Source of the DNA: Escherichia phage arall
Length of the DNA: 64,000 nt
Sequence record: MN850584.1
Direction: 5' to 3' (one strand)
Numbering within the stretch: the stretch's first letter is position 1; each line of letters opens with the position of its first letter. The notes beneath the pieces were generated by a model that was not told the origin of the DNA, ran no database searches, and worked only from the letters and a program-made list of their open reading frames with translations. Shown here in pieces: positions 6,179-64,000 of this stretch. The position numbers and the translations under genes are program-made.

Positions 6179-6406
6179 ATGGCTATCGTTATTGTTCGCG
6201 TATCCGGTACGGTTGGAAGCTCCCAGGTAGTAGCAGTTATCACAGAGAAGAAAGGGGATGATCTTCACTCTTCCTTGAATAGCTGGGCGGTCGCTAATTT
6301 TGGTCAGTGGTCGAGCGTCGAGTATATCGAATCCTACCAGGTGCCAACGATTAGCCTGACCGATCTCAACGTTGATCGTCTGTTATGCCTGGATGAATTA
6401 ATCTGA
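6179..6406 (+). CDS. Hypothetical early protein (75 aa)
   Basis: ORF after cassette. Confidence 0.6.
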   Translation: MAIVIVRVSGTVGSSQVVAVITEKKGDDLHSSLNSWAVANFGQWSSVEYIESYQVPTISLTDLNVDRLLCLDELI

Positions 6407-25792: not shown

Positions 25793-26605
25793 TTACTTAG
25801 TCAAATGATCTTCTATCATTTTTATGAAAGCAGGATTGCTAAAAGCATCTGCTGCCTTTTCTCTGTAAACAAAGACTCCTCTATCTTCGTAAAGAAGAGT
25901 TTCTTCGTAATTAATTCCTGGGTTAACAACAATCATTTTTGTACCCATATTAAGTGCAGGGAATAATTCCCAATTAAAATTGATAACTTGGTTTGAACAT
26001 CCTACTACAACAACCAAATCTTGCATGGTCAAAGTATCAAACAAGTGAGCCATATCTGCATACAAAGGTGCAGCCTCACCAAAAAATACAACATTAGGCT
26101 TCACCCAGTTATAATCATCTATGTTTATACTATTGTAACCAATATCTACCAGTGTTTTGTAATCTCCAGGATGCATACGGTAAACTACTTCAGGAAGATA
26201 CCCGTGCACGTGAATAACAGAATCCCTGTCCACACCTGCTCGCTCTAGTAGATCATCAACGTTTGTTGTCAAGTTTACTACTTGGTTAGGATATTCCTTA
26301 AACCACTTTGCTATTTGAATATGTGCAGCATTAGGTTGTACATCTTTAAGCTCAACACGTCTTTTGTTATAAAATTCGTGTGTTTTGGCATACAAGTCCA
26401 TACCGTTCTCGTCTACACCACCGACCACTGGAAGATCTGGAGATGTTCTCACACGATAACCTGCTTGGAAAGCTCCAATATCGCAGACCTCTTCTAAGTC
26501 ATATTCTTCCCATAAGGCACGACCACTATCTGTGTCTGTTCGGAACGTTCGAATCCCACTGTCTGCACTTAAACCTGCGCCACTAACAAAAATTACTCTT
26601 CGCAT
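25793..26605 (-). CDS. Sir2 (sirtuin)-family protein, Zn-ribbon-less
   Basis: GAGLSADSGIRTFR (sirtuin GAGxSxxSGIPxFR), TTNVDDL (TQNID), HVHG catalytic His, VVFFGE; no Cys4 Zn module; RBS AAGAGGA. Confidence 0.8.
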   Translation of the reverse strand: MRRVIFVSGAGLSADSGIRTFRTDTDSGRALWEEYDLEEVCDIGAFQAGYRVRTSPDLPVVGGVDENGMDLYAKTHEFYNKRRVELKDVQPNAAHIQIAKWFKEYPNQVVNLTTNVDDLLERAGVDRDSVIHVHGYLPEVVYRMHPGDYKTLVDIGYNSINIDDYNWVKPNVVFFGEAAPLYADMAHLFDTLTMQDLVVVVGCSNQVINFNWELFPALNMGTKMIVVNPGINYEETLLYEDRGVFVYREKAADAFSNPAFIKMIEDHLTK

Positions 26606-53730: not shown

Positions 53731-53754
53731 AGCCCCCGAAGGGGCTTTATTTCT
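53731..53754. terminator. Hairpin AGCCCC-CGAA-GGGGCT + TTATTTCTT
   Basis: GC stem; T-run is on + strand though flanking genes are on -. Confidence 0.45.
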
Positions 53755-54476
53755 TAAGCAATGATTGCTGCGATATTAGGTTTAACAAAGGTAGATGGTT
53801 TCATAATTTTACCTTTGTCATCAAAGAATACGTACACCTTTTGAACTTCGTTATATACAGCATGTACCCCAGTATAAGAACCTTCTGCACGATCTTTGCT
53901 TCGCATCTCGATAGCATCGCACTCTTTTTCAAGAGCTTCAATAATATCCTTAGTTTCCCAAATAGCCAGGAGTTGCTTCTTGGTAGGATACTTGGACTCA
54001 TTGCTATTCAACACTTCACGCATAACCTTCTTCTCGTTATAAACAGAACGCACCAAAGTATCTCGTGCCATACGGGTAAGTGTAAGAGACATTAAGGCAA
54101 ATTGCAAGTCATTTTCTACCATTTTATCAAATTCAATGATAACATCGTAAATGTTTTCTGCCAGAACATCTCCTGTCGGCATTTCCAGAGCTTTATCAAC
54201 ACCTTCTTTACCAAAGAACATAAATGCCAGGTAGGATGCTACCACAAAAATATCTGCTGCTGCATCAAGTAATTCAACGTGATCATTTTCCTGTGCTGCT
54301 GCTTGAAACTCTTTAAGTTCTTCTCGTACAAAAGAAAGTTGAGCTTCAAACATCTCTTGAGTAAATTCTGGAGTTACTCCACCGCGTGCCTTAGCATTCC
54401 AAGCAACAATTTGATCGGCAGCTTTGATAAAGAAGCTATTGTCCACTTTTACTTGTTTGAAAAAATTCTCGATCAT
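53754..54476 (-). CDS. Hypothetical protein, possibly all-alpha NTP pyrophosphohydrolase (MazG-like)
   Basis: Spaced acidic residues in helices (ELKEF...ELLDAAADI); weak. Confidence 0.3.
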   Translation of the reverse strand: MIENFFKQVKVDNSFFIKAADQIVAWNAKARGGVTPEFTQEMFEAQLSFVREELKEFQAAAQENDHVELLDAAADIFVVASYLAFMFFGKEGVDKALEMPTGDVLAENIYDVIIEFDKMVENDLQFALMSLTLTRMARDTLVRSVYNEKKVMREVLNSNESKYPTKKQLLAIWETKDIIEALEKECDAIEMRSKDRAEGSYTGVHAVYNEVQKVYVFFDDKGKIMKPSTFVKPNIAAIIA

Positions 54477-56935: not shown

Positions 56936-57868
56936 TTAGCCTCCAAAGAAGTTTTCTATTTCTTTACGTCGCTCTTGTGGAGCTAGAGCAGCCCATTGAA
57001 CCTTCGTAAAATTATTTCGAAGCCATTCTATCAAAGTATAATATTCTTCGTCAACAATTTGTTTAGCATTATTTGGGTTGTCCCAAATCATATCCCACTT
57101 CTTATTACCACCACGCATAAGGAACTTCTTAGCAAGATAGTATGGTGACTTAATTTTTAAGAGTAAGTTAAACGGGTAGTTTGTTTCACGAACAACAAAG
57201 CCTTCGTGTCTACAATGTTTAGACATTTCAACAACATCTGAAAATTTAATCATCGGATAAACTTCAGGACGTTTAAATTTTGTAATAGATGCAATCCCAT
57301 CAAGAACACCTTCAGGTAACATGAAACTTGTCCCATCAAGATTTTGAATTCTTGCTCCAATTAAGTATGCGCCTGGTTCTTCTTCGACAATATGTGGATC
57401 AGAAGGATCACAGATTTCAAAAAGGAAAGTTGCTTTTGCACTTTCTGTCCACTTAATGAAATACTCTATGTCATCACACTCGGAAACAATACGGTTCTTG
57501 GCAATAGTTGCAAAGTCTGACTCTAGGCTCCCTGTTGTTGATACAACAAGTTTCCCTTTGTACACACCTACAGATGCCATAAAACCGTTTACTTTACGGA
57601 CAGCATCTACAAATTCATCTCCTGGAAGATCTGTACCATTCTCAAAACGATTAAAGATTTTAGTAAAAGGCCAAATAACAATATTATCTTCTGAGTCAAC
57701 AACCAACCCACGACAATCTAAAAGTCGTTTGTCAACGTTCCACAAGTTATCCCAGAATACATTGTTTTTGTATTTAAGTACAGCAAGACCAGCATACTCT
57801 CCAGATTTAACTTCTTTTTTATGCACTAAACCTTTTGCAATCAGGTCATCACAATTGAACTTAGCCAC
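56936..57868 (-). CDS. RNA ligase-like nucleotidyltransferase (GTG start)
   Basis: RKVNGFMA (motif I KxNG), HEGFVVRE (motif IV), LLLKIKSPYY (motif V); RBS AAGGAG. Confidence 0.55.
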   Translation of the reverse strand: MAKFNCDDLIAKGLVHKKEVKSGEYAGLAVLKYKNNVFWDNLWNVDKRLLDCRGLVVDSEDNIVIWPFTKIFNRFENGTDLPGDEFVDAVRKVNGFMASVGVYKGKLVVSTTGSLESDFATIAKNRIVSECDDIEYFIKWTESAKATFLFEICDPSDPHIVEEEPGAYLIGARIQNLDGTSFMLPEGVLDGIASITKFKRPEVYPMIKFSDVVEMSKHCRHEGFVVRETNYPFNLLLKIKSPYYLAKKFLMRGGNKKWDMIWDNPNNAKQIVDEEYYTLIEWLRNNFTKVQWAALAPQERRKEIENFFGG

Positions 57869-57869
57869 C

Positions 57870-58421
57870 TTAATCTCCTTTGATTATCTTATGATGGTCT
57901 ACAACAATAATATCACGCTTATCCATAATAGAGATGATTTCGTCAAAATGCAAGATTTTCCCGTGTGCATCCCAACCAACATCCAACATTTTCCCATACA
58001 AATGATCAGGGAATGATCCGTGAGAGTGTCCGTGTAGCATGATTGATCCATGCCCTTGTTTATTCCAGGCAGCCATAGGGTAATGACTTAAGACGAAGAA
58101 CAATTTCTGATATTTCACTTCGTCATAATACACAACTTCTCCATACTCTGCAAGCACTTTTCTGTGTTTACTGTAATCATGGTTCCCAACACAGTAAGTA
58201 ATATCCCCTTGGAGACGGGAAGCAATCTTACGGGTATCTTCTTCAGTCCCGAAACAGAAGTCCCCAAGATGGTACATCTTTACTCCTGGTGTTGTGGCAC
58301 ATTTATTCCATGCTTCGATCAGTGCTTCTGTCATATGCTCCATATCTTCCCACGGGCGATATTCAGGAGCAAACTCTCGGATACGTTTGTGCATAAAATG
58401 CAAATCACTTGTAATAAACAT
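57870..58421 (-). CDS. Calcineurin-like metallophosphoesterase (putative RNA 3'-end healing phosphatase)
   Basis: DLHFMH, GDFCFG, GNHD, HGHSHG motifs. Confidence 0.75.
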   Translation of the reverse strand: MFITSDLHFMHKRIREFAPEYRPWEDMEHMTEALIEAWNKCATTPGVKMYHLGDFCFGTEEDTRKIASRLQGDITYCVGNHDYSKHRKVLAEYGEVVYYDEVKYQKLFFVLSHYPMAAWNKQGHGSIMLHGHSHGSFPDHLYGKMLDVGWDAHGKILHFDEIISIMDKRDIIVVDHHKIIKGD

Positions 58422-58783
58422 TAGTATAATCCCTCGCTGAATAGTTCACTGTTGTGACCATTTCTTTCGTAGTTAATTTGTTTGGCGTTATCTGCAATGA
58501 CATAAGCATCTTTGCGACTCCACCAGTTATAATACTGATCAATAAACCCTTGATTATCAGGTAAGCAAAACAGTTTATCGATCAATCCTGCATCTTTTAA
58601 AACATTAAGTTGTGCAGATAGTACAGGATTTGCATGCCTAACACAAGGAATAATTAACTCTTCACCATTGTTAAGAATATACTTGTTCGCAGCGCAGACT
58701 ATAACACGTTGAGCATAGTGATCCTCACCAATCCAAGTGAGAGGTTGGTAACAAATATCATGTTGATTAGTAGCGCACATCAA
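58421..58783 (-). CDS. Hypothetical protein (120 aa)
   Basis: ORF. Confidence 0.5.
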   Translation of the reverse strand: MMCATNQHDICYQPLTWIGEDHYAQRVIVCAANKYILNNGEELIIPCVRHANPVLSAQLNVLKDAGLIDKLFCLPDNQGFIDQYYNWWSRKDAYVIADNAKQINYERNGHNSELFSEGLY

Positions 58784-58938
58784 TTTTCTCCATACTCTTT
58801 TAGTCTATCAGCTAAAAAACTGTAATCAGGAAGTAAAAGATCATTACTCGTATCGCTCCAATTTTCTTCCTCTCTATAGATAAAATGCCCTTCATCCTCT
58901 TCTTGCTCTGACCAGACTGAGTAATGCATAACACCTAC

Positions 58939-59313
58939 TTAATAGTTAACACGTTTAATTTCAACACCATAGGATGCAATAAAATTTTCCTTAGCTAACA
59001 TATATTTACCAGCAGCAGAAGGATTTGATGTATGAACATAGATAGTTTTAAGAGCATCCCATTCACCTGCGTACAACATACATTCTACGTCTAAGAACGC
59101 ATGATATCCTTCTTGATCTTCTCCAAGATCATTATCGAAGTGTATCTCTGAAATATTATTGAAATTATCTTCATCTGAAACAAAAGATGACCAATCCCCA
59201 AAAGATTTTAACCAAATGGCATCCTCATAACCATAATCTTTAGGATCTCTTAAATCGTCTAACCAAAGAATTTTAGCCACTATCAACCCCCTTCCTGTTT
59301 CTCTTCTTTCCAA
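58939..59313 (-). CDS. Hypothetical protein (124 aa)
   Basis: ORF. Confidence 0.5.
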   Translation of the reverse strand: MERRETGRGLIVAKILWLDDLRDPKDYGYEDAIWLKSFGDWSSFVSDEDNFNNISEIHFDNDLGEDQEGYHAFLDVECMLYAGEWDALKTIYVHTSNPSAAGKYMLAKENFIASYGVEIKRVNY

Positions 59314-60537: not shown

Positions 60538-60906
60538 CTAATTAACGTCAGCACTATGATTGTTGAGAGTATAGGATACTCCATCGCCCAAGTCAACATG
60601 AATCTCAACTCCTAACTGTCTTTCTAATGGTAAACGTTTTGAGAATTGATAATTACAAAGTTTGCAATCTAAGTCAAGCAACTCATGTTTGCTTAAGCCT
60701 GGAATGATAACTTTGCTTCCCACTGTCCACTCAATACCTTCAAAGTTATCTCTTCTTTTCAAAATGTCAAGTAAGAAGATGATTTGTTGCCATTCCGTAG
60801 ACAAGTCTTCTTCATAGAACGCAGAACAAAAAGTTTTATCATCGTAGAAAGCATACATTATGCTTCCATCTATTGTTTCACTTCTAACGTAGCGTGTGAC
60901 CCTCAT
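60538..60906 (-). CDS. Hypothetical protein, first gene of minus-strand block (122 aa)
   Basis: RBS AGGAGGGAAT; upstream divergent promoter region. Confidence 0.55.
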   Translation of the reverse strand: MRVTRYVRSETIDGSIMYAFYDDKTFCSAFYEEDLSTEWQQIIFLLDILKRRDNFEGIEWTVGSKVIIPGLSKHELLDLDCKLCNYQFSKRLPLERQLGVEIHVDLGDGVSYTLNNHSADVN

Positions 60907-61247
60907 TATTCCCTCCTATACGGCTCTGTAACGAGCTAATGGCCTTTAAGATATGCAATCACCTTACCTCACAGTAAAACTCGTTACAATCGTTTTTAGG
61001 AGGTTTAGGTTGTACTTAAAAATAATCTAAAAAGGTGTTGACAAACGCAAAAAAGTATGCTACCCTAACCCCCGAAAAACGCCGAGCGCAGCGAGGGGGT
61101 GTTATCTAATCTTGTGATACATGATCTAACAGACAACTGAGTAGTCTACATATAGCACTATGTTATGTCTATAATACTAACATACATGCTCTATACTAAC
61201 AATAGATTCTTTATTAATTTTATTATTAATTAAATAATAAATATCTA

Positions 61248-61276
61248 TTGACTTTAGATCTATCTGTATGTAGAGT
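61248..61276 (+). promoter_or_regulatory. Sigma70-like promoter TTGACT-17-TAGAGT
   Basis: Hexamers 40 nt upstream of 61316, RBS AAGGAG. Confidence 0.55.
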
Positions 61277-61315
61277 AGAAAACATAAAGTCCGAACTCAA
61301 CTAAGGAGATAAACA

Positions 61316-62209
61316 ATGAAAGTTAGTATTCTACATGGTGTTGACTGTTATGTTACTGATGTAGACGTTAAAGTCTTTACATTCTCTGGTGGAGAACAAC
61401 ATGTTCAACTAGATACGAATCTATCAGGTTTCAATCATGCTACAGACAGAATCTTACTCTCTTTAGAAGTAAGATCTGCTAAAGACTTGATGACTTTGGT
61501 TATGACTAAGAATGCATTGGACAATATGCTATATCATAAACCATATTGTGTTGATTTGCTCATGTTGTATGTGCCATATGCACGACAAGACAGAGTGTGT
61601 GAACCTGGGGAAGCATTCGGAGTTAAAGCATTTGCTTCTATAATTAATTCATTAAATTTCTCACGTGTTATCGTTGCTGATCCACATAGTGATGTTACTC
61701 CAGCGGTGTTTGACAGACTCTGTGTAATACCTCAAGAAGAGATTGCTTACGAAACTTTAAAGTGGAAGTTACGTATGGAGAATTTTGCTCTTGTTAGTCC
61801 TGATGGTGGTGCTCTTAAGAAAATATTTAAATTATCTAAGAAAATGTCTTTAGATGTGTTCTGTGCAGAGAAGGTTAGAGATACTGCAACAGGTGCTATT
61901 GTTCGTACAGACATTTCTGTACAGGATTTCAATAAGCGTAACCTGATGATCGTAGATGATATCTGTGACGGCGGTAGAACTTTTATTGAATTGGCTAAAG
62001 TGCTACGTGCTCGTAACGCAGGTAAGATTGAGTTATATGTTACACACGGTATCTTTTCTAAAGGTCTTAAAGAGTTAAGTGAGCACTTTGACTGCATTCA
62101 TTCTCTTAATGTGTGGGAAGATAACATCCAAGAAGATTCCGGTGTTCTTGTTAAGAATCAGTCAGATTTGCAACAACAAATTGTATCTCCATACGTGTGG
62201 AATTTTTAA
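61316..62209 (+). CDS. Ribose-phosphate pyrophosphokinase (Prs)-family protein; candidate ADP-ribose pyrophosphokinase of NARP1-type pathway
   Basis: VPYARQDRV, ADPHS, VSPDGGA, MIVDDICDGGRTFIEL...YVTHGIFSKG parallel recalled Prs; adjacent to NAMPT-like gene. Confidence 0.8.
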   Translation: MKVSILHGVDCYVTDVDVKVFTFSGGEQHVQLDTNLSGFNHATDRILLSLEVRSAKDLMTLVMTKNALDNMLYHKPYCVDLLMLYVPYARQDRVCEPGEAFGVKAFASIINSLNFSRVIVADPHSDVTPAVFDRLCVIPQEEIAYETLKWKLRMENFALVSPDGGALKKIFKLSKKMSLDVFCAEKVRDTATGAIVRTDISVQDFNKRNLMIVDDICDGGRTFIELAKVLRARNAGKIELYVTHGIFSKGLKELSEHFDCIHSLNVWEDNIQEDSGVLVKNQSDLQQQIVSPYVWNF

Positions 62210-62219
62210 ATAATAAGTG

Positions 62220-62254
62220 TTGACAATAGGGAGTATGCTTAGTAAGATACTCCC
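62220..62254 (+). promoter_or_regulatory. Sigma70-like promoter TTGACA-17-TAAGAT overlapped by palindrome GGGAGTAT-N10-ATACTCCC
   Basis: 8-bp inverted repeat spans spacer and -10. Confidence 0.55.
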
Positions 62255-62280
62255 ACACTAACAAACAAGGAGACATAACT

Positions 62281-64000
62281 ATGAATATTTTTGCACCTTT
62301 TGCTACTGATTGGTATAAACCTGGTCACAAGCAGATGTACAACCAAAATACAAAACTCATTTTCTCTAATTTAACTCCTCGTAATGATAAAAACTTTGCA
62401 CACTATGCAGATCGTGAAGCACGTGGTGTAATTGTTTTAGGTATTCGTCGAGCAGTTACTGATGCTCTTGTAACTATGTGGGATAGCTTCTTTAAAATGT
62501 CTCGTAGTGCAGCAGTAAATAAGTTTTATCGTATGTCTAAAAATGCATTAGGTGCTTCTTCTCCTTCTGCTGAATGTTGGGGAGAATTGCACGATTTAGG
62601 TTATCTTCCGCTGGAAGTTCGATCTCTGCCAGAAGGTGTTTTGTGTCCTATTGGTGTTCCTGTGTTTACTGTGCATAATACTTTAGAAAAATTCTTTTGG
62701 TTAACTAACTATGTGGAAACACTATTGTCAGATGAAACTTGGAAGACAATGACTAATGCTACAGCAGCTTTTCAGTATAAGCGTATTGCTATGGCATATG
62801 CGATGGCAACGTGTGATAATATTGATCACGTTAACTTCCAGTGTCATGATTTTAGCCTACGTGGTTTAAGTAATATTGAAGATGGTTATAAGAGTGGTAT
62901 CGCTCATTTGGCATCGTTCACAGGCACAGATAATATTCTGGCTATTGAAACTGTGCATGATTATTATGGTATTGATTATGATCAGTTTGTTGCAGGTTCT
63001 ATTCCGGCAACAGAACATTCAGTAGCAACGACTAACATTGGAGCTATTGTTGAAGATCTGAAGAAACATTTCCCACATCTTAAAGATGATGTTGATGGGC
63101 TTCGTTATGTAGCAGAGAAAGAGTTTCTTCGCCGCTATATTGAAGAAATTGTTCCAGAAGGTTTTTGTTCATATGTAGCAGATTCTTATGATTACTGGGC
63201 TGTCTTGACTCGCATTCTGGTAGAATTGAAAGAGTCCATTATGTCACGAAATGGTCGTCTTGTTATTCGTCCAGATTCAGGAGATCCGGTTAAAGTTGTT
63301 GCAGGATACAATGTTGAATCTTTTGCTAACTATGAAGACCTTTTAAATAATGGTATTGCTACAGCCACTGAAGTAGTTCATTTGGCTGATGTTAATAAGT
63401 ATTACAATGTTCTTCAGGATTGCAGTGTTGCTGATTGTATTGATGAAACTTATGAGATTCCTTATTGTGAAGCAGTAGGTTCTATTCAAATCCTTTGGGA
63501 AGTGTTTGGTGGTACTATCAACCGAAAAGGCTACAAGGTTCTTGATCAGCACATCGGTATGATTTATGGTGATTCTATTACTGTTGAACGAGAACACGAG
63601 ATCTTACGCCGACTGAAGAAGAAAGGTTTTGCAGCTTCCAATATTGTATTTGGTGTTGGTAGTTATACTTATCAGTTCAATACACGAGATACTTTTGGTT
63701 TTGCTGTTAAAGCAACAGGTAGTATCATCGGTGAACACGAAATTTTGGTAAGTAAGGAGCCTAAAACTGATCCTGGTAAACGCTCTGCAAAAGGTTTTAT
63801 TAAGGTTGTTAAGGATACAAATGGTAAACTTTCTCTTGTGGATAATCTTTCTTTTAAAGATATTCAAGATGAAGACAATGAGTTAAAAGTTATCTTCAGG
63901 GATGGTACGGTTATTACACCACAAGTAGAAGGACGTGATGAAACATTTACTGATATCCGCAACCGTGTTGATGTAGAGGTTCTTCGTACTATGGGAACCA
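62281..64000 (+). CDS. Nicotinamide phosphoribosyltransferase (NAMPT/NadV)-family protein, 3'-truncated by window; candidate nicotinamide ADP-ribose transferase
   Basis: TDWYKPGH (TDSYK), CHDFSLRG, GTDN, VIRPDSGDP, GMIYGDSIT, FGVGS. Confidence 0.8.
   Translation, partial: MNIFAPFATDWYKPGHKQMYNQNTKLIFSNLTPRNDKNFAHYADREARGVIVLGIRRAVTDALVTMWDSFFKMSRSAAVNKFYRMSKNALGASSPSAECWGELHDLGYLPLEVRSLPEGVLCPIGVPVFTVHNTLEKFFWLTNYVETLLSDETWKTMTNATAAFQYKRIAMAYAMATCDNIDHVNFQCHDFSLRGLSNIEDGYKSGIAHLASFTGTDNILAIETVHDYYGIDYDQFVAGSIPATEHSVATTNIGAIVEDLKKHFPHLKDDVDGLRYVAEKEFLRRYIEEIVPEGFCSYVADSYDYWAVLTRILVELKESIMSRNGRLVIRPDSGDPVKVVAGYNVESFANYEDLLNNGIATATEVVHLADVNKYYNVLQDCSVADCIDETYEIPYCEAVGSIQILWEVFGGTINRKGYKVLDQHIGMIYGDSITVEREHEILRRLKKKGFAASNIVFGVGSYTYQFNTRDTFGFAVKATGSIIGEHEILVSKEPKTDPGKRSAKGFIKVVKDTNGKLSLVDNLSFKDIQDEDNELKVIFRDGTVITPQVEGRDETFTDIRNRVDVEVLRTMGT

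What the first reader, a model, noticed from the sequence alone, without database searches (positions are those of the whole stretch)
61316..64000. Prs-like plus NAMPT-like pair resembling the NARP1 NAD+ reconstitution pathway
The adjacent genes encode a PRPP-synthetase-fold enzyme and a nicotinamide-phosphoribosyltransferase-fold enzyme (TDWYK, RPDSGDP), each with its own promoter and divergent from the main block. From established work, such phage pairs can rebuild NAD+ from ADP-ribose and nicotinamide to overcome NAD+-depleting defences such as Thoeris, DSR and SIR2-based systems. The alternative is a conventional NadV salvage enzyme beside a housekeeping-type Prs.
Basis: partly seen in the sequence, partly recalled or inferred. 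Interest (0 to 1): 0.7.

Follow-up and report, generated by a model that had tools for sequence, protein, structure and literature searches.

The report
Known phage NAD+ rebuilding gene pair
These two neighbouring phage genes match NARP1, a published two-enzyme pathway that lets phages rebuild NAD+ from its breakdown products and escape NAD+-destroying bacterial defences; the same genes in near-identical phages are already catalogued, so the call is correct but not new.

Summary
The window is a phi92-like E. coli myovirus (Justusliebigvirus, 99% identical to phages alia and phi92). It carries a 297-aa Prs-family gene (61316-62209, +). A NAMPT-family gene starts 72 bp downstream (62281 to the window end, which removes its last 4 codons).

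The NARP1 reading holds on every sequence test I could run:
- The Prs-like protein groups with the validated ADPR-pyrophosphate synthetases (Adps) of Bas63, SPbetaL1 and FADO, apart from canonical Prs, in 200/200 bootstraps. It fails every Prs equivalog cut-off.
- The NAMPT-like protein groups with Adps-linked homologs, apart from NARP2-type Nampt, in 100/100 bootstraps.
- It carries the published Namat adenine-clamp motif exactly (GSYTYQFNTRD).
- Its best solved-structure match is SPbetaL1 Namat.
- The window holds no NMNAT, Macro or RyR accessory gene.

The supplementary tables of Osterman et al. 2024 already list the phi92, alia and PaulScherrer copies as a Namat-linked Prs/Adps homolog and an "Adps-associated" Namat. 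The finding is therefore already known. No paper I found tests this genus experimentally, so activity is inferred.

The one mildly new lead lies outside the window. The near-identical phage alia encodes a distal Macro protein 41% identical to the validated ADPR-1''-phosphatase Adpp.

The parts
60907..61315 (.). Divergent intergenic region between the minus-strand early/metabolic block (last gene starts at 60906) and the plus-strand Adps-Namat-tRNA block
   Evidence: ORF list and sequence; GC-skew sign change near 61 kb; same layout in phi92 and alia annotation
61036..61066 (+). Promoter-like site TGTTGACA-N17-TACCCT, followed by a GC-rich hairpin at about 61068-61100
   Evidence: Pattern search gave 5 matches in the window against 0.49 expected; hairpin seen in the fold. 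Function not shown.
61248..61276 (+). Promoter-like site TTGACT-17-TAGAGT, 40 bp upstream of the Adps start codon
   Evidence: Consensus scan, 9 of 12 positions. A consensus match only.
61316..62209 (+). adps: ADP-ribose pyrophosphate synthetase-type member of the Prs family, 297 aa (equivalent to phi92 gp107)
   Evidence: ORF; PHROG 619 at 5e-91; groups with validated Adps and apart from canonical Prs in 200/200 bootstraps; fails all Prs equivalog cut-offs; PRPP-synthetase fold
61868..61894 (+). Adps catalytic flexible loop EKVRDTATG (residues 185-193). K186 aligns with SPbetaL1 Adps K162, whose K162A mutant is inactive. The K-x-R-[DN]-x-x-T-G form is specific to the Adps clade.
   Evidence: Alignment; K186, R188 and G193 invariant in 47 homologs; K162A data in the paper
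61955..61984 (+). Adps ribose-phosphate (PRPP-motif) loop DDICDGGRTF (residues 214-223). Canonical Prs has DDMIDTGGT here.
   Evidence: Alignment; coordinates
62218..62248 (+). Promoter-like site TGTTGACA-N17-TAAGAT before namat. An inverted repeat GGGAGT/ACTCCC (62229-62234 and 62249-62254) brackets the -10 hexamer.
   Evidence: Best consensus match in the region, 10 of 12; enriched pattern; -35 box and inverted repeat conserved in Klebsiella relatives, with one compensatory T-A to A-T change
62281..64000 (+). namat: nicotinamide ADP-ribose transferase-type member of the Nampt family. 573 of 577 codons lie in the window (equivalent to phi92 gp108, 3 substitutions).
   Evidence: Translation; PHROG 448 at 2e-187; best PDB match 9w5x/9w5w at 5e-118, read as SPbetaL1 Namat from residue numbering, against human NAMPT at 3e-48; Adps-linked clade in 100/100 bootstraps
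62374..62397 (+). Namat selectivity-clamp loop (SCL) region TPRNDKNF (residues 32-39). K37 aligns with SPbetaL1 R40.
   Evidence: Alignments; SCL rule from PMC12774641
63658..63690 (+). Namat selectivity-clamp helix (SCH) motif GSYTYQFNTRD (residues 460-470), the adenine-stacking signature that separates Namat from Nampt
   Evidence: Motif definition GSX-phi-X-phi-X-phi-TRD. Present in all 8 Adps-linked homologs and absent from all 4 homologs with no Adps in the fetched flanks, which have GMGGxLLQ..RD.

Best explanation
The two genes are the core NARP1 pathway of a phi92-like coliphage.

When a host defence (SIR2, TIR or SEFIR type) cleaves NAD+ into ADP-ribose and nicotinamide, the first enzyme (Adps, a diverged PRPP-synthetase homolog) uses ATP to pyrophosphorylate the free ribose 1''-OH of ADP-ribose, giving ADPR-pyrophosphate. 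The second enzyme (Namat, a diverged Nampt homolog whose entrance clamp stacks on the adenine ring) displaces that pyrophosphate with nicotinamide and regenerates NAD+ directly. Phage replication can then continue despite NAD+ depletion.

Shown here: gene presence and adjacency, fold, clade membership, conserved catalytic residues and the Namat clamp motif.

Inferred from homology to Bas63, SPbetaL1, FADO and DyoEdafos: the two reactions and the anti-defence phenotype.

The genes are probably transcribed early from sigma-70-like promoters. That rests on consensus matches only.
For: Identity of the phage: 99% DNA identity to Justusliebigvirus alia and phi92.

Adps:
- In an NJ tree of 31 sequences, the split between 7 canonical Prs and the group holding the window protein, three validated Adps and 20 further phage or bacterial homologs (19 of them Namat-linked) was recovered in 200/200 bootstraps.
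- It is 35% identical to Bas63 Adps (E 2e-42) and 28% to E. coli Prs (E 1e-18).
- It scores 50-100 bits against Prs models whose cut-offs are 296-536 bits.
- It lacks the Prs N-terminal helix and the conserved C-terminal segment. It has the K-x-R-D-x-x-T-G loop and the DDICDGGRT loop.
- K186 aligns with the essential K162 of SPbetaL1 Adps.

Namat:
- It has the SCH motif GSYTYQFNTRD, as defined in PMC12774641.
- Catalytic residues are conserved: D10, Y12, F191, R194, D217, H246, R330, D332.
- Its best solved-structure match is SPbetaL1 Namat.
- The Adps-linked clade is separate from the homologs with no Adps nearby in 100/100 bootstraps.

Context: the two genes lie 72 bp apart. The window has no NMNAT, Macro or RyDEP homolog, and the whole alia genome has no NMNAT.

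Literature: the near-identical phi92, alia and PaulScherrer genes are listed as 'Namat within 10 genes: Yes' and 'Adps-associated'. The pathway chemistry and phenotypes are established for homologs.
Against: - No experiment exists for any Justusliebigvirus copy.
- Identity to the biochemically validated Adps is only about 35%, and no Adps structure is solved. The residues that bind ADPR rather than ribose-5-phosphate are therefore unknown.
- The SCL loop departs from the published rule. The third residue is Lys (K37), but the fourth is Asn and an aromatic residue (F39) comes only fifth. The loop is also 6 residues longer than in SPbetaL1.
- Namat enzymes keep NMN-forming side activity with PRPP in vitro.
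- Pfam, PHROGs and NCBIfam still name the pair Prs and Nampt. The Namat protein passes the NCBIfam Nampt-type equivalog NF006629.
- The genes may have separate promoters rather than forming one operon.
Confidence: 0.85

Rival explanations
1. Conventional salvage. The first enzyme is a true PRPP synthetase and the second a true Nampt (NadV). Together they make NMN from ribose-5-phosphate, ATP and nicotinamide, and the host NadR or PncC finishes NAD+.
For: Pfam, PHROG and NCBIfam names. The first protein just passes the broad TIGR01251 subfamily cut-off (118.8 against 113 bits). The second passes NF006629. Namat homologs can make NMN from PRPP in vitro.
Against: The Prs-like protein fails every Prs equivalog model and sits in the Adps clade in 200/200 bootstraps. 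The validated clade member SPbetaL1 Adps gave no Prs-type product. The Nampt-like protein carries the adenine clamp that Nampt lacks. Bas63 NARP1 works in a host lacking pncC and nadR.
Confidence: 0.05
2. The chemistry is NARP1, but the main role is housekeeping for the phage. The pair recycles ADP-ribose and nicotinamide released by the phage's own NAD+-consuming enzymes, for example the SIR2-family protein at 25793-26605, rather than countering host defence.
For: The same window encodes a SIR2-family protein with intact NAD-binding and catalytic motifs. NARP1 homologs also occur in non-mobile bacterial chromosome regions, which has been read as a housekeeping role.
Against: The phage SIR2 family is widespread (983 records). 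It includes T5-like phages, which to my knowledge lack NARP1, so there is no specific linkage. The two loci are 35 kb apart on opposite strands. In homologs the ADPR-PP intermediate appears only when a defence system is present.
Confidence: 0.07
3. The pair boosts the nucleotide-precursor supply. The first enzyme raises PRPP for nucleotide synthesis alongside the neighbouring ribonucleotide reductase, thymidylate synthase and thymidine kinase genes, and the Nampt homolog is incidental.
For: The minus-strand block upstream encodes many nucleotide-metabolism enzymes. This is the historic annotation logic.
Against: The Prs-like gene is tightly and widely coupled to a Namat gene (97% of the Adps clade according to the paper; all the homologs I inspected). 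It lacks canonical Prs regulatory segments.
Confidence: 0.02
4. NARP2-type pathway: Nampt plus a phage NMN adenylyltransferase.
For: The second protein belongs to the Nampt family.
Against: tblastn finds no NMNAT homolog in the window or in the whole genome of the 99%-identical phage alia. The protein falls outside the clade that holds the NARP2-type Nampts (ACP17, ValKK3) in 100/100 bootstraps.
Confidence: 0.01

Closest known systems
NARP1 (Adps + Namat) of phages Bas63 (JohannRWettstein gp79-80), SPbetaL1 (gp190-191), FADO and DyoEdafos (Osterman et al. 2024, bioRxiv 10.1101/2024.02.11.579819; Lan et al. 2026, PMC12774641)
   Same: Same two families, in the same order and adjacent. Same clades. 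Same catalytic Lys in Adps and Arg in Namat. Same SCH adenine-clamp motif. Like Bas63 Namat, it has two large insertions relative to SPbetaL1 Namat.
   Different: Only 35% identical to the validated Adps and about 40% to Bas63-type Namat. The SCL loop is longer and has Asn at the fourth position. A promoter-like site and a hairpin lie between the two genes, and in Klebsiella relatives an extra ORF or an HNH endonuclease sits there. Not tested experimentally.
NARP1-AP (Adps-Adpp-Namat) of Vibrio phage Gary (Osterman et al. 2026, bioRxiv 10.64898/2026.01.28.702374)
   Same: Same core enzymes. The 99%-identical phage alia encodes a Macro protein 41% identical (E 2e-36) to the validated Adpp.
   Different: There is no Macro gene in or next to the pair, or anywhere in the window. 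The alia Macro gene lies about 80 kb away in a cluster with a ComF-like PRTase, a HAD hydrolase and TerC, and it carries an extra N-terminal segment of about 85 aa. Justusliebigviruses are not in that paper's NARP1-AP table.
NARP2 (Nampt + Nmnat) of Vibrio phage KVP40 and relatives
   Same: Uses a Nampt-family enzyme to restore NAD+.
   Different: A different clade, no adenine clamp (GMGGGLLQ..RD), paired with NMNAT and not with Adps. No NMNAT in this phage type.
Canonical class I PRPP synthetase (E. coli Prs, PDB 4s2u/6asv) and Nampt (human NAMPT)
   Same: Same folds and core catalytic residues: FSxGE, YARQDR, the catalytic His and Lys in Prs; HDFxxRG, GTD, EH and RPDSG in Nampt.
   Different: The Adps lacks the Prs N-terminal helix and the conserved C-terminal segment, and its 5-phosphate loop is altered. 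The Namat has aromatic clamp residues where Nampt has Gly, Ala or Lys.

Membership tests
NARP1 | Prs-family protein that falls in the Adps clade, separate from canonical bacterial Prs | tested here: met
   In an NJ tree of 31 sequences, the split between 7 canonical Prs and the group holding the window protein, Bas63, SPbetaL1 and FADO Adps and 20 further homologs (19 Namat-linked) was recovered in 200/200 bootstraps.
NARP1 | Namat homolog in the immediate vicinity of adps (within 10 genes) | tested here: met
   The next gene, 72 bp downstream on the same strand. The paper's table gives 'Yes' for the phi92, alia and PaulScherrer copies.
NARP1 | Nampt-family protein in the Adps-associated (Namat) clade, not the NARP2/Nampt clade | tested here: met
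   100/100 bootstraps over 12 phage homologs. Listed as 'Adps-associated' in Osterman Table S2.
NARP1 | Namat SCH motif GSX-phi-X-phi-X-phi-TRD with aromatic X (adenine stacking) | tested here: met
   GSYTYQFNTRD at residues 460-470. The aromatic residues Y462 and F466 align with SPbetaL1 F392 and Y396.
NARP1 | Namat SCL loop with Arg, Lys or Tyr at the third position plus a stacking residue (the third, or the fourth if the third is Lys or Tyr) | tested here: inconclusive
   The third residue is K37, as in Bas63. The fourth is N38, not aromatic, and F39 follows. The loop is 6 residues longer than in SPbetaL1. No complex model was made.
NARP1 | Catalytic residues shown essential by mutagenesis (Adps K162; Namat R306, D215) | tested here: met
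   Adps K186 aligns with K162. Namat R330 and D217 align with R306 and D215.
NARP1 | Adps converts ADPR plus ATP to ADPR-PP; Namat converts ADPR-PP plus nicotinamide to NAD+ | not testable with these tools
   Needs purified proteins and LC-MS. Shown only for homologs.
NARP1 | Counters NAD+-depleting defences (SIR2-HerA, DSR1/2, type I Thoeris, SEFIR) | not testable with these tools
   Needs phage deletion mutants and plaque assays. No published test for Justusliebigvirus was found.
Canonical PRPP synthetase (Prs) | Scores above the curated equivalog cut-offs of the NCBIfam Prs models | tested here: not met
   50-100 bits against cut-offs of 296-536. Only the broad TIGR01251 subfamily model is just passed (118.8 against 113).
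Canonical PRPP synthetase (Prs) | Canonical N-terminal helix, DTGGT 5-phosphate loop and conserved C-terminal segment | tested here: not met
   The N-terminal helix is absent, the loop reads DGGRT, and the C-terminus is unrelated.
NARP2 / conventional Nampt (NadV) | Nampt-type entrance (no aromatic clamp) and partnership with an NMN adenylyltransferase | tested here: not met
   The clamp is present. No NMNAT homolog in the window or in the whole alia genome.
NARP1-AP | Macro-domain ADPR-1''-phosphatase (Adpp) within the NARP1 operon (within 2 genes) | tested here: not met
   Neighbouring genes have no Macro domain. No Adpp homolog in the window. A distal homolog exists in the relative alia.

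The most novel reading that the evidence does not exclude
Phi92-like phages may run a 'split' NARP1-AP. The core Adps-Namat pair in this window could be complemented in trans by a distal Poa1p-like Macro protein. That protein is alia gp066, about 80 kb away and outside this window. It is 41% identical to the validated ADPR-1''-phosphatase Adpp of Vibrio phage Gary.

If so, these phages could also resist aRES-type defences, which produce ADPR-1''-phosphate. The published estimate that 15% of NARP1 phages carry Adpp was made by scanning only two genes either side of each NARP1 pair, and it would then undercount.

I could not check whether this window's own phage carries that gene.
Probability: 0.3. 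Interest if true: 0.4.

Novelty: already known. Interest (0 to 1): 0.15.

Why it matters
It confirms that a reader working from raw sequence alone identified a recently discovered counter-defence pathway correctly. For phage biology and phage therapy, carrying NARP1 predicts that phi92-like coliphages should tolerate NAD+-depleting defences such as SIR2-HerA, DSR, type I Thoeris and SEFIR. This adds nothing conceptually new. The pathway, its chemistry, the structural basis of its specificity and the listing of these very genes are all published. The only fresh angle is the distal Adpp-like Macro gene in this phage lineage, which could be tested in the tractable BASEL phage PaulScherrer (Bas60).

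Tried and rejected
- Profile libraries as a discriminator. Pfam, PHROGs and NCBIfam do not separate Adps from Prs, or Namat from Nampt, by name. Namat even passes the Nampt-type equivalog NF006629. I therefore used trees and motifs.
- Listing in Osterman Table S1 as proof of Adps-clade membership. That sheet holds canonical Prs as well (rows marked 'No'), so listing alone proves nothing. Only the 'Namat within 10 genes' column and the Table S2 label carry information.
- Accessory NARP genes near the pair. The eleven upstream genes and two downstream ORFs have no Macro or RyR domain. tblastn of Adpp, RyDEP and NMNAT against the window found nothing.
- A riboswitch or known RNA in the leader. 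There is only a sub-threshold GA-cis match (21.3 against 34.7 bits, E 0.14). I treated it as chance.
- A tRNA inside namat, as annotated in phi92. ARAGORN finds no tRNA anywhere in the window.
- A functional link between the phage SIR2 gene and NARP1. The SIR2 family is in 983 phage records, including lineages that to my knowledge lack NARP1. There is no specific co-occurrence, so I did not pursue it.
- An intrinsic terminator between the two genes. None is predicted on the + strand.
- A solved Adps structure, to map ADPR-binding residues. None exists in the PDB copy, by sequence or by fold.
Full report
**What is there.** The window is a phi92-like E. coli myovirus. Region 60900-64000 is 99.0-99.2% identical over its full length to Escherichia phages alia and phi92 (Justusliebigvirus, Stephanstirmvirinae), and 55 phage records cover at least 80% of it.

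On the + strand, ORF 61316-62209 encodes 297 aa. A second ORF starts at 62281 and runs off the window end after 573 codons. In phi92 this second gene (gp108) is 577 aa and differs at 3 residues, so the window loses only 4 codons and the stop. Both genes have AGGAG ribosome-binding sites.

The long minus-strand gene block ends at 60906 and GC skew flips near 61 kb. In relatives, two small ORFs and a tRNA array follow downstream of the pair.

**Family assignment.** The first protein matches Pfam Pribosyltran and Pribosyl_synth, TIGR01251 (2e-34) and PHROG 619 (5e-91). The second matches Pfam NAPRTase (2e-37), PHROG 448 (2e-187) and NCBIfam NF006629. An AlphaFold2 model of the first protein (mean pLDDT 93.5) matches solved PRPP synthetases at TM 0.70-0.78.

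**Adps or Prs?** The profile libraries do not separate the two, so I tested it directly. The comparison set had four parts:
- Three experimentally validated Adps: Bas63, SPbetaL1 and FADO.
- Twenty further phage or bacterial homologs, 19 of them Namat-linked. Bacillus phage Crookii has no Namat nearby.
- Seven canonical Prs: E. coli Prs read from the K-12 genome, and six actinobacterial Prs that Osterman et al. mark as not Namat-linked.
- The window protein itself.

The split between the canonical Prs and everything else was recovered in 200/200 NJ bootstraps. The window protein nests in the Gram-negative phage subclade that contains Bas63 Adps.

It is 35% identical to Bas63 Adps (E 2e-42) and 28% identical to E. 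coli Prs (E 1e-18). It scores 50-100 bits against NCBIfam Prs models whose cut-offs are 296-536 bits, and only just passes the broad TIGR01251 subfamily model.

The alignment shows features shared across the Adps clade:
- The Prs N-terminal helix is missing.
- DPHS replaces DLHA.
- The catalytic loop reads K186-V-R-D-x-x-T-G. K186 aligns with SPbetaL1 K162, whose K162A mutant is inactive.
- The ribose-phosphate loop reads DDICDGGRT where Prs has DDMIDTGGT.
- The conserved Prs C-terminal segment is absent.

No Adps structure is solved, so which residues accommodate the ADP moiety is unknown.

**Namat or Nampt?** Lan et al. (PMC12774641) solved SPbetaL1 Namat. They showed that an entrance 'selectivity clamp' gives preference for ADPR-PP over PRPP. 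The clamp is a variable loop (SCL) plus a conserved helix motif (SCH) of the form GSX-phi-X-phi-X-phi-TRD, where X is aromatic.

The window protein reads GSYTYQFNTRD at residues 460-470, an exact fit. Human NAMPT has GSGG(A/G)LLQKLTRD at the aligned position. The catalytic core is intact: D10, Y12, F191, R194, D217, H246, R330, D332 and G430-D431-S432.

The best solved-structure matches are 9w5x and 9w5w (E 5e-118). I read these as SPbetaL1 Namat, because their residue numbering fits the paper's D13, Y15, R40 and F392. Human NAMPT scores 3e-48.

I fetched twelve phage homologs together with their flanks. Eight have an Adps gene beside or near them:
- phi92 and the window phage;
- two Klebsiella relatives;
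- a Bas63-like Felixounavirus;
- Staphylococcus phage K;
- DyoEdafos;
- ICP1;
- ZPAH1.

All eight have aromatic residues at the clamp positions. ZPAH1's motif is the most divergent (GSWGF...SRD).

The other four are ACP17 (beside an NMNAT), KVP40-like ValKK3, RB43 and phiKp_9. None has an Adps in the fetched flanks, and all read GMGGxLLQ..RD. The two groups separate in 100/100 bootstraps.

One feature is only partly as published. In the SCL, K37 occupies the 'third' position, as in Bas63. The fourth residue is Asn rather than an aromatic, and Phe comes fifth. The loop is also longer.

**Accessory genes and alternatives.**
- The eleven upstream genes have no Macro (Adpp) or RyR (RyDEP) domain.
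- tblastn of Adpp, RyDEP and an NMNAT finds nothing in the window.
- The whole alia genome holds no NMNAT or RyDEP.

This is therefore the two-gene core NARP1, not NARP1-AP, not a RyDEP-extended form and not NARP2.

The rival 'conventional Prs plus NadV' reading is disfavoured by the clade, HMM and motif results. It is also disfavoured by published data showing that Adps-clade enzymes do not act as Prs, and that Bas63 NARP1 works without the host's pncC and nadR.

**Promoters.** Consensus sites lie at 61248-61276 and 62220-62248, but the regional count is not above shuffles. The extended pattern TGTTGACA-N16-18-TAnnnT occurs 5 times in the window against 0.49 expected, including at 61036 and 62218.

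The site before namat, and an inverted repeat that brackets its -10 box, are conserved in Klebsiella relatives. In those relatives a 67-aa ORF or an HNH endonuclease is inserted between the two genes. No + strand terminator is predicted between the genes. Separate promoters are plausible but not shown.

**Comparison with what is known.** Osterman et al. (bioRxiv 10.1101/2024.02.11.579819) discovered NARP1 in Bas63. Their supplementary tables list the phi92, alia, PaulScherrer and JohannJBalmer copies of both genes, with 'Namat within 10 genes: Yes' and 'Adps-associated'. Table S1 also contains canonical Prs, so listing alone is not proof of clade. My own tree supplies that proof.

I found no paper that tests NARP1 from a Justusliebigvirus. 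The function is therefore a well-supported inference.

**Verdict.** I put confidence in the NARP1 mechanism at 0.85. Interest is low (0.15).

**A side lead outside the window.** Phage alia gp066 is a Macro-domain protein 41% identical (E 2e-36) to the validated Adpp of Vibrio phage Gary. It lies about 80 kb from NARP1, next to a ComF-like PRTase, a HAD hydrolase and TerC.

The aRES paper scanned only two genes either side of each NARP1 pair, so it would have missed this gene. However, this Poa1p-like family is very widespread in phages (2908 records), including T4, which to my knowledge lacks NARP1. A functional link is therefore only a hypothesis.

Noticed in passing
window 25793-26605 (-): A phage-encoded SIR2-family protein of 270 aa (Pfam SIR2 1.3e-22, PHROG 2162 1e-105). 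It has the GAGLSADSGIRTFR, TTNVDD and HVHG motifs but no Cys-rich zinc ribbon after the catalytic His. An NAD+-consuming enzyme therefore sits in the same phage as the NAD+-rebuilding pair. The family is in 983 phage records, so there is no specific linkage to NARP1.
   Followed up: partly
L017:15856-16569 (-) = phage alia 55853-56569, outside the window: A Macro-domain protein (alia gp066, annotated 'phosphatase'). Its C-terminal 150 aa are 41% identical (E 2e-36) to the validated ADPR-1''-phosphatase Adpp of Vibrio phage Gary. It lies about 80 kb from NARP1, beside a ComF-like PRTase (PF15610, 9e-42), a HAD hydrolase, an ATPase and TerC. It could be a trans-acting Adpp.
   Followed up: partly
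window 56936-59313 (-): An RNA-repair-like cluster directly upstream of the pair: a T4 Rnl1-type RNA ligase (56936-57868), a metallophosphoesterase (57870-58421), a PHROG 839 protein (58421-58783) and a cREC_REC 'cyclic-phosphate processing receiver' domain protein (58939-59313). In relatives an ATPase precedes them.
   Followed up: partly
window 62229-62254 (+): An inverted repeat GGGAGT...ACTCCC brackets the -10 box of the promoter-like site before namat. It is conserved in Klebsiella relatives, with one compensatory T-A to A-T change. It could be an operator or a 5' RNA hairpin.
   Followed up: partly
window 61036-61110 (+): A third promoter-like site (TGTTGACA-N17-TACCCT) is followed by a GC-rich hairpin ACCCCCGAAAAACGCCGAGCGCAGCGAGGGGGT. 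There is a terminator-like site on the - strand at 61093-61080. A sub-threshold Rfam GA-cis match lies at 60995-61110 (21.3 against 34.7 bits). The 261-nt leader folds with z = -2.6.
   Followed up: partly
L006:2127-2702 and L005:2147-2350: In Klebsiella Stephanstirmvirinae an HNH endonuclease (FKP3) or a 67-aa ORF (phi1_175008) is inserted between adps and namat, and two small + strand ORFs precede adps. The pair is not always contiguous.
   Followed up: no
window 6179-6406 (+): The homolog of this 75-aa ORF in phage alia (gp113) is annotated 'phosphoribosylpyrophosphate synthetase'. It has no Pfam hit and belongs to PHROG 13850, of unknown function. This is probably a propagated misannotation.
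   Followed up: yes
L001:5974-6124 (phi92 annotation), equivalent to window ~62873-63023: The phi92 record annotates a 151-nt 'hypothetical tRNA' inside the namat coding sequence. ARAGORN finds no tRNA anywhere in the window.
   Followed up: yes
phage records MG065656, MG065639 and MG065689 (hits H28, H153, H154): Records named 'Campylobacter phage' C3, A150 and A110a (146,366 bp) are 98.6-98.7% identical to this E. coli phage lineage across the pair. They may be mislabelled or contaminant assemblies.
   Followed up: no
window 53754-54476 (-): A MazG-like / PRA-PH nucleotide pyrophosphohydrolase of 240 aa (Pfam PF01503 3e-07, PHROG 671).
   Followed up: no
proteins P0061, P0062, P0087, P0103: Close homologs of the window Adps (42-46% identity) lie on large bacterial contigs from Geminocystis (two of them 3.9 and 4.2 Mb) and on a Thorsellia anophelis contig. 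This fits the published reports of bacterial NARP1. Their neighbourhoods were not inspected.
   Followed up: no
literature: PMC11724313: AntiDefenseFinder reports the anti-TIR gene Atd1 in Justusliebigvirus phages. I did not locate it in this window.
   Followed up: no
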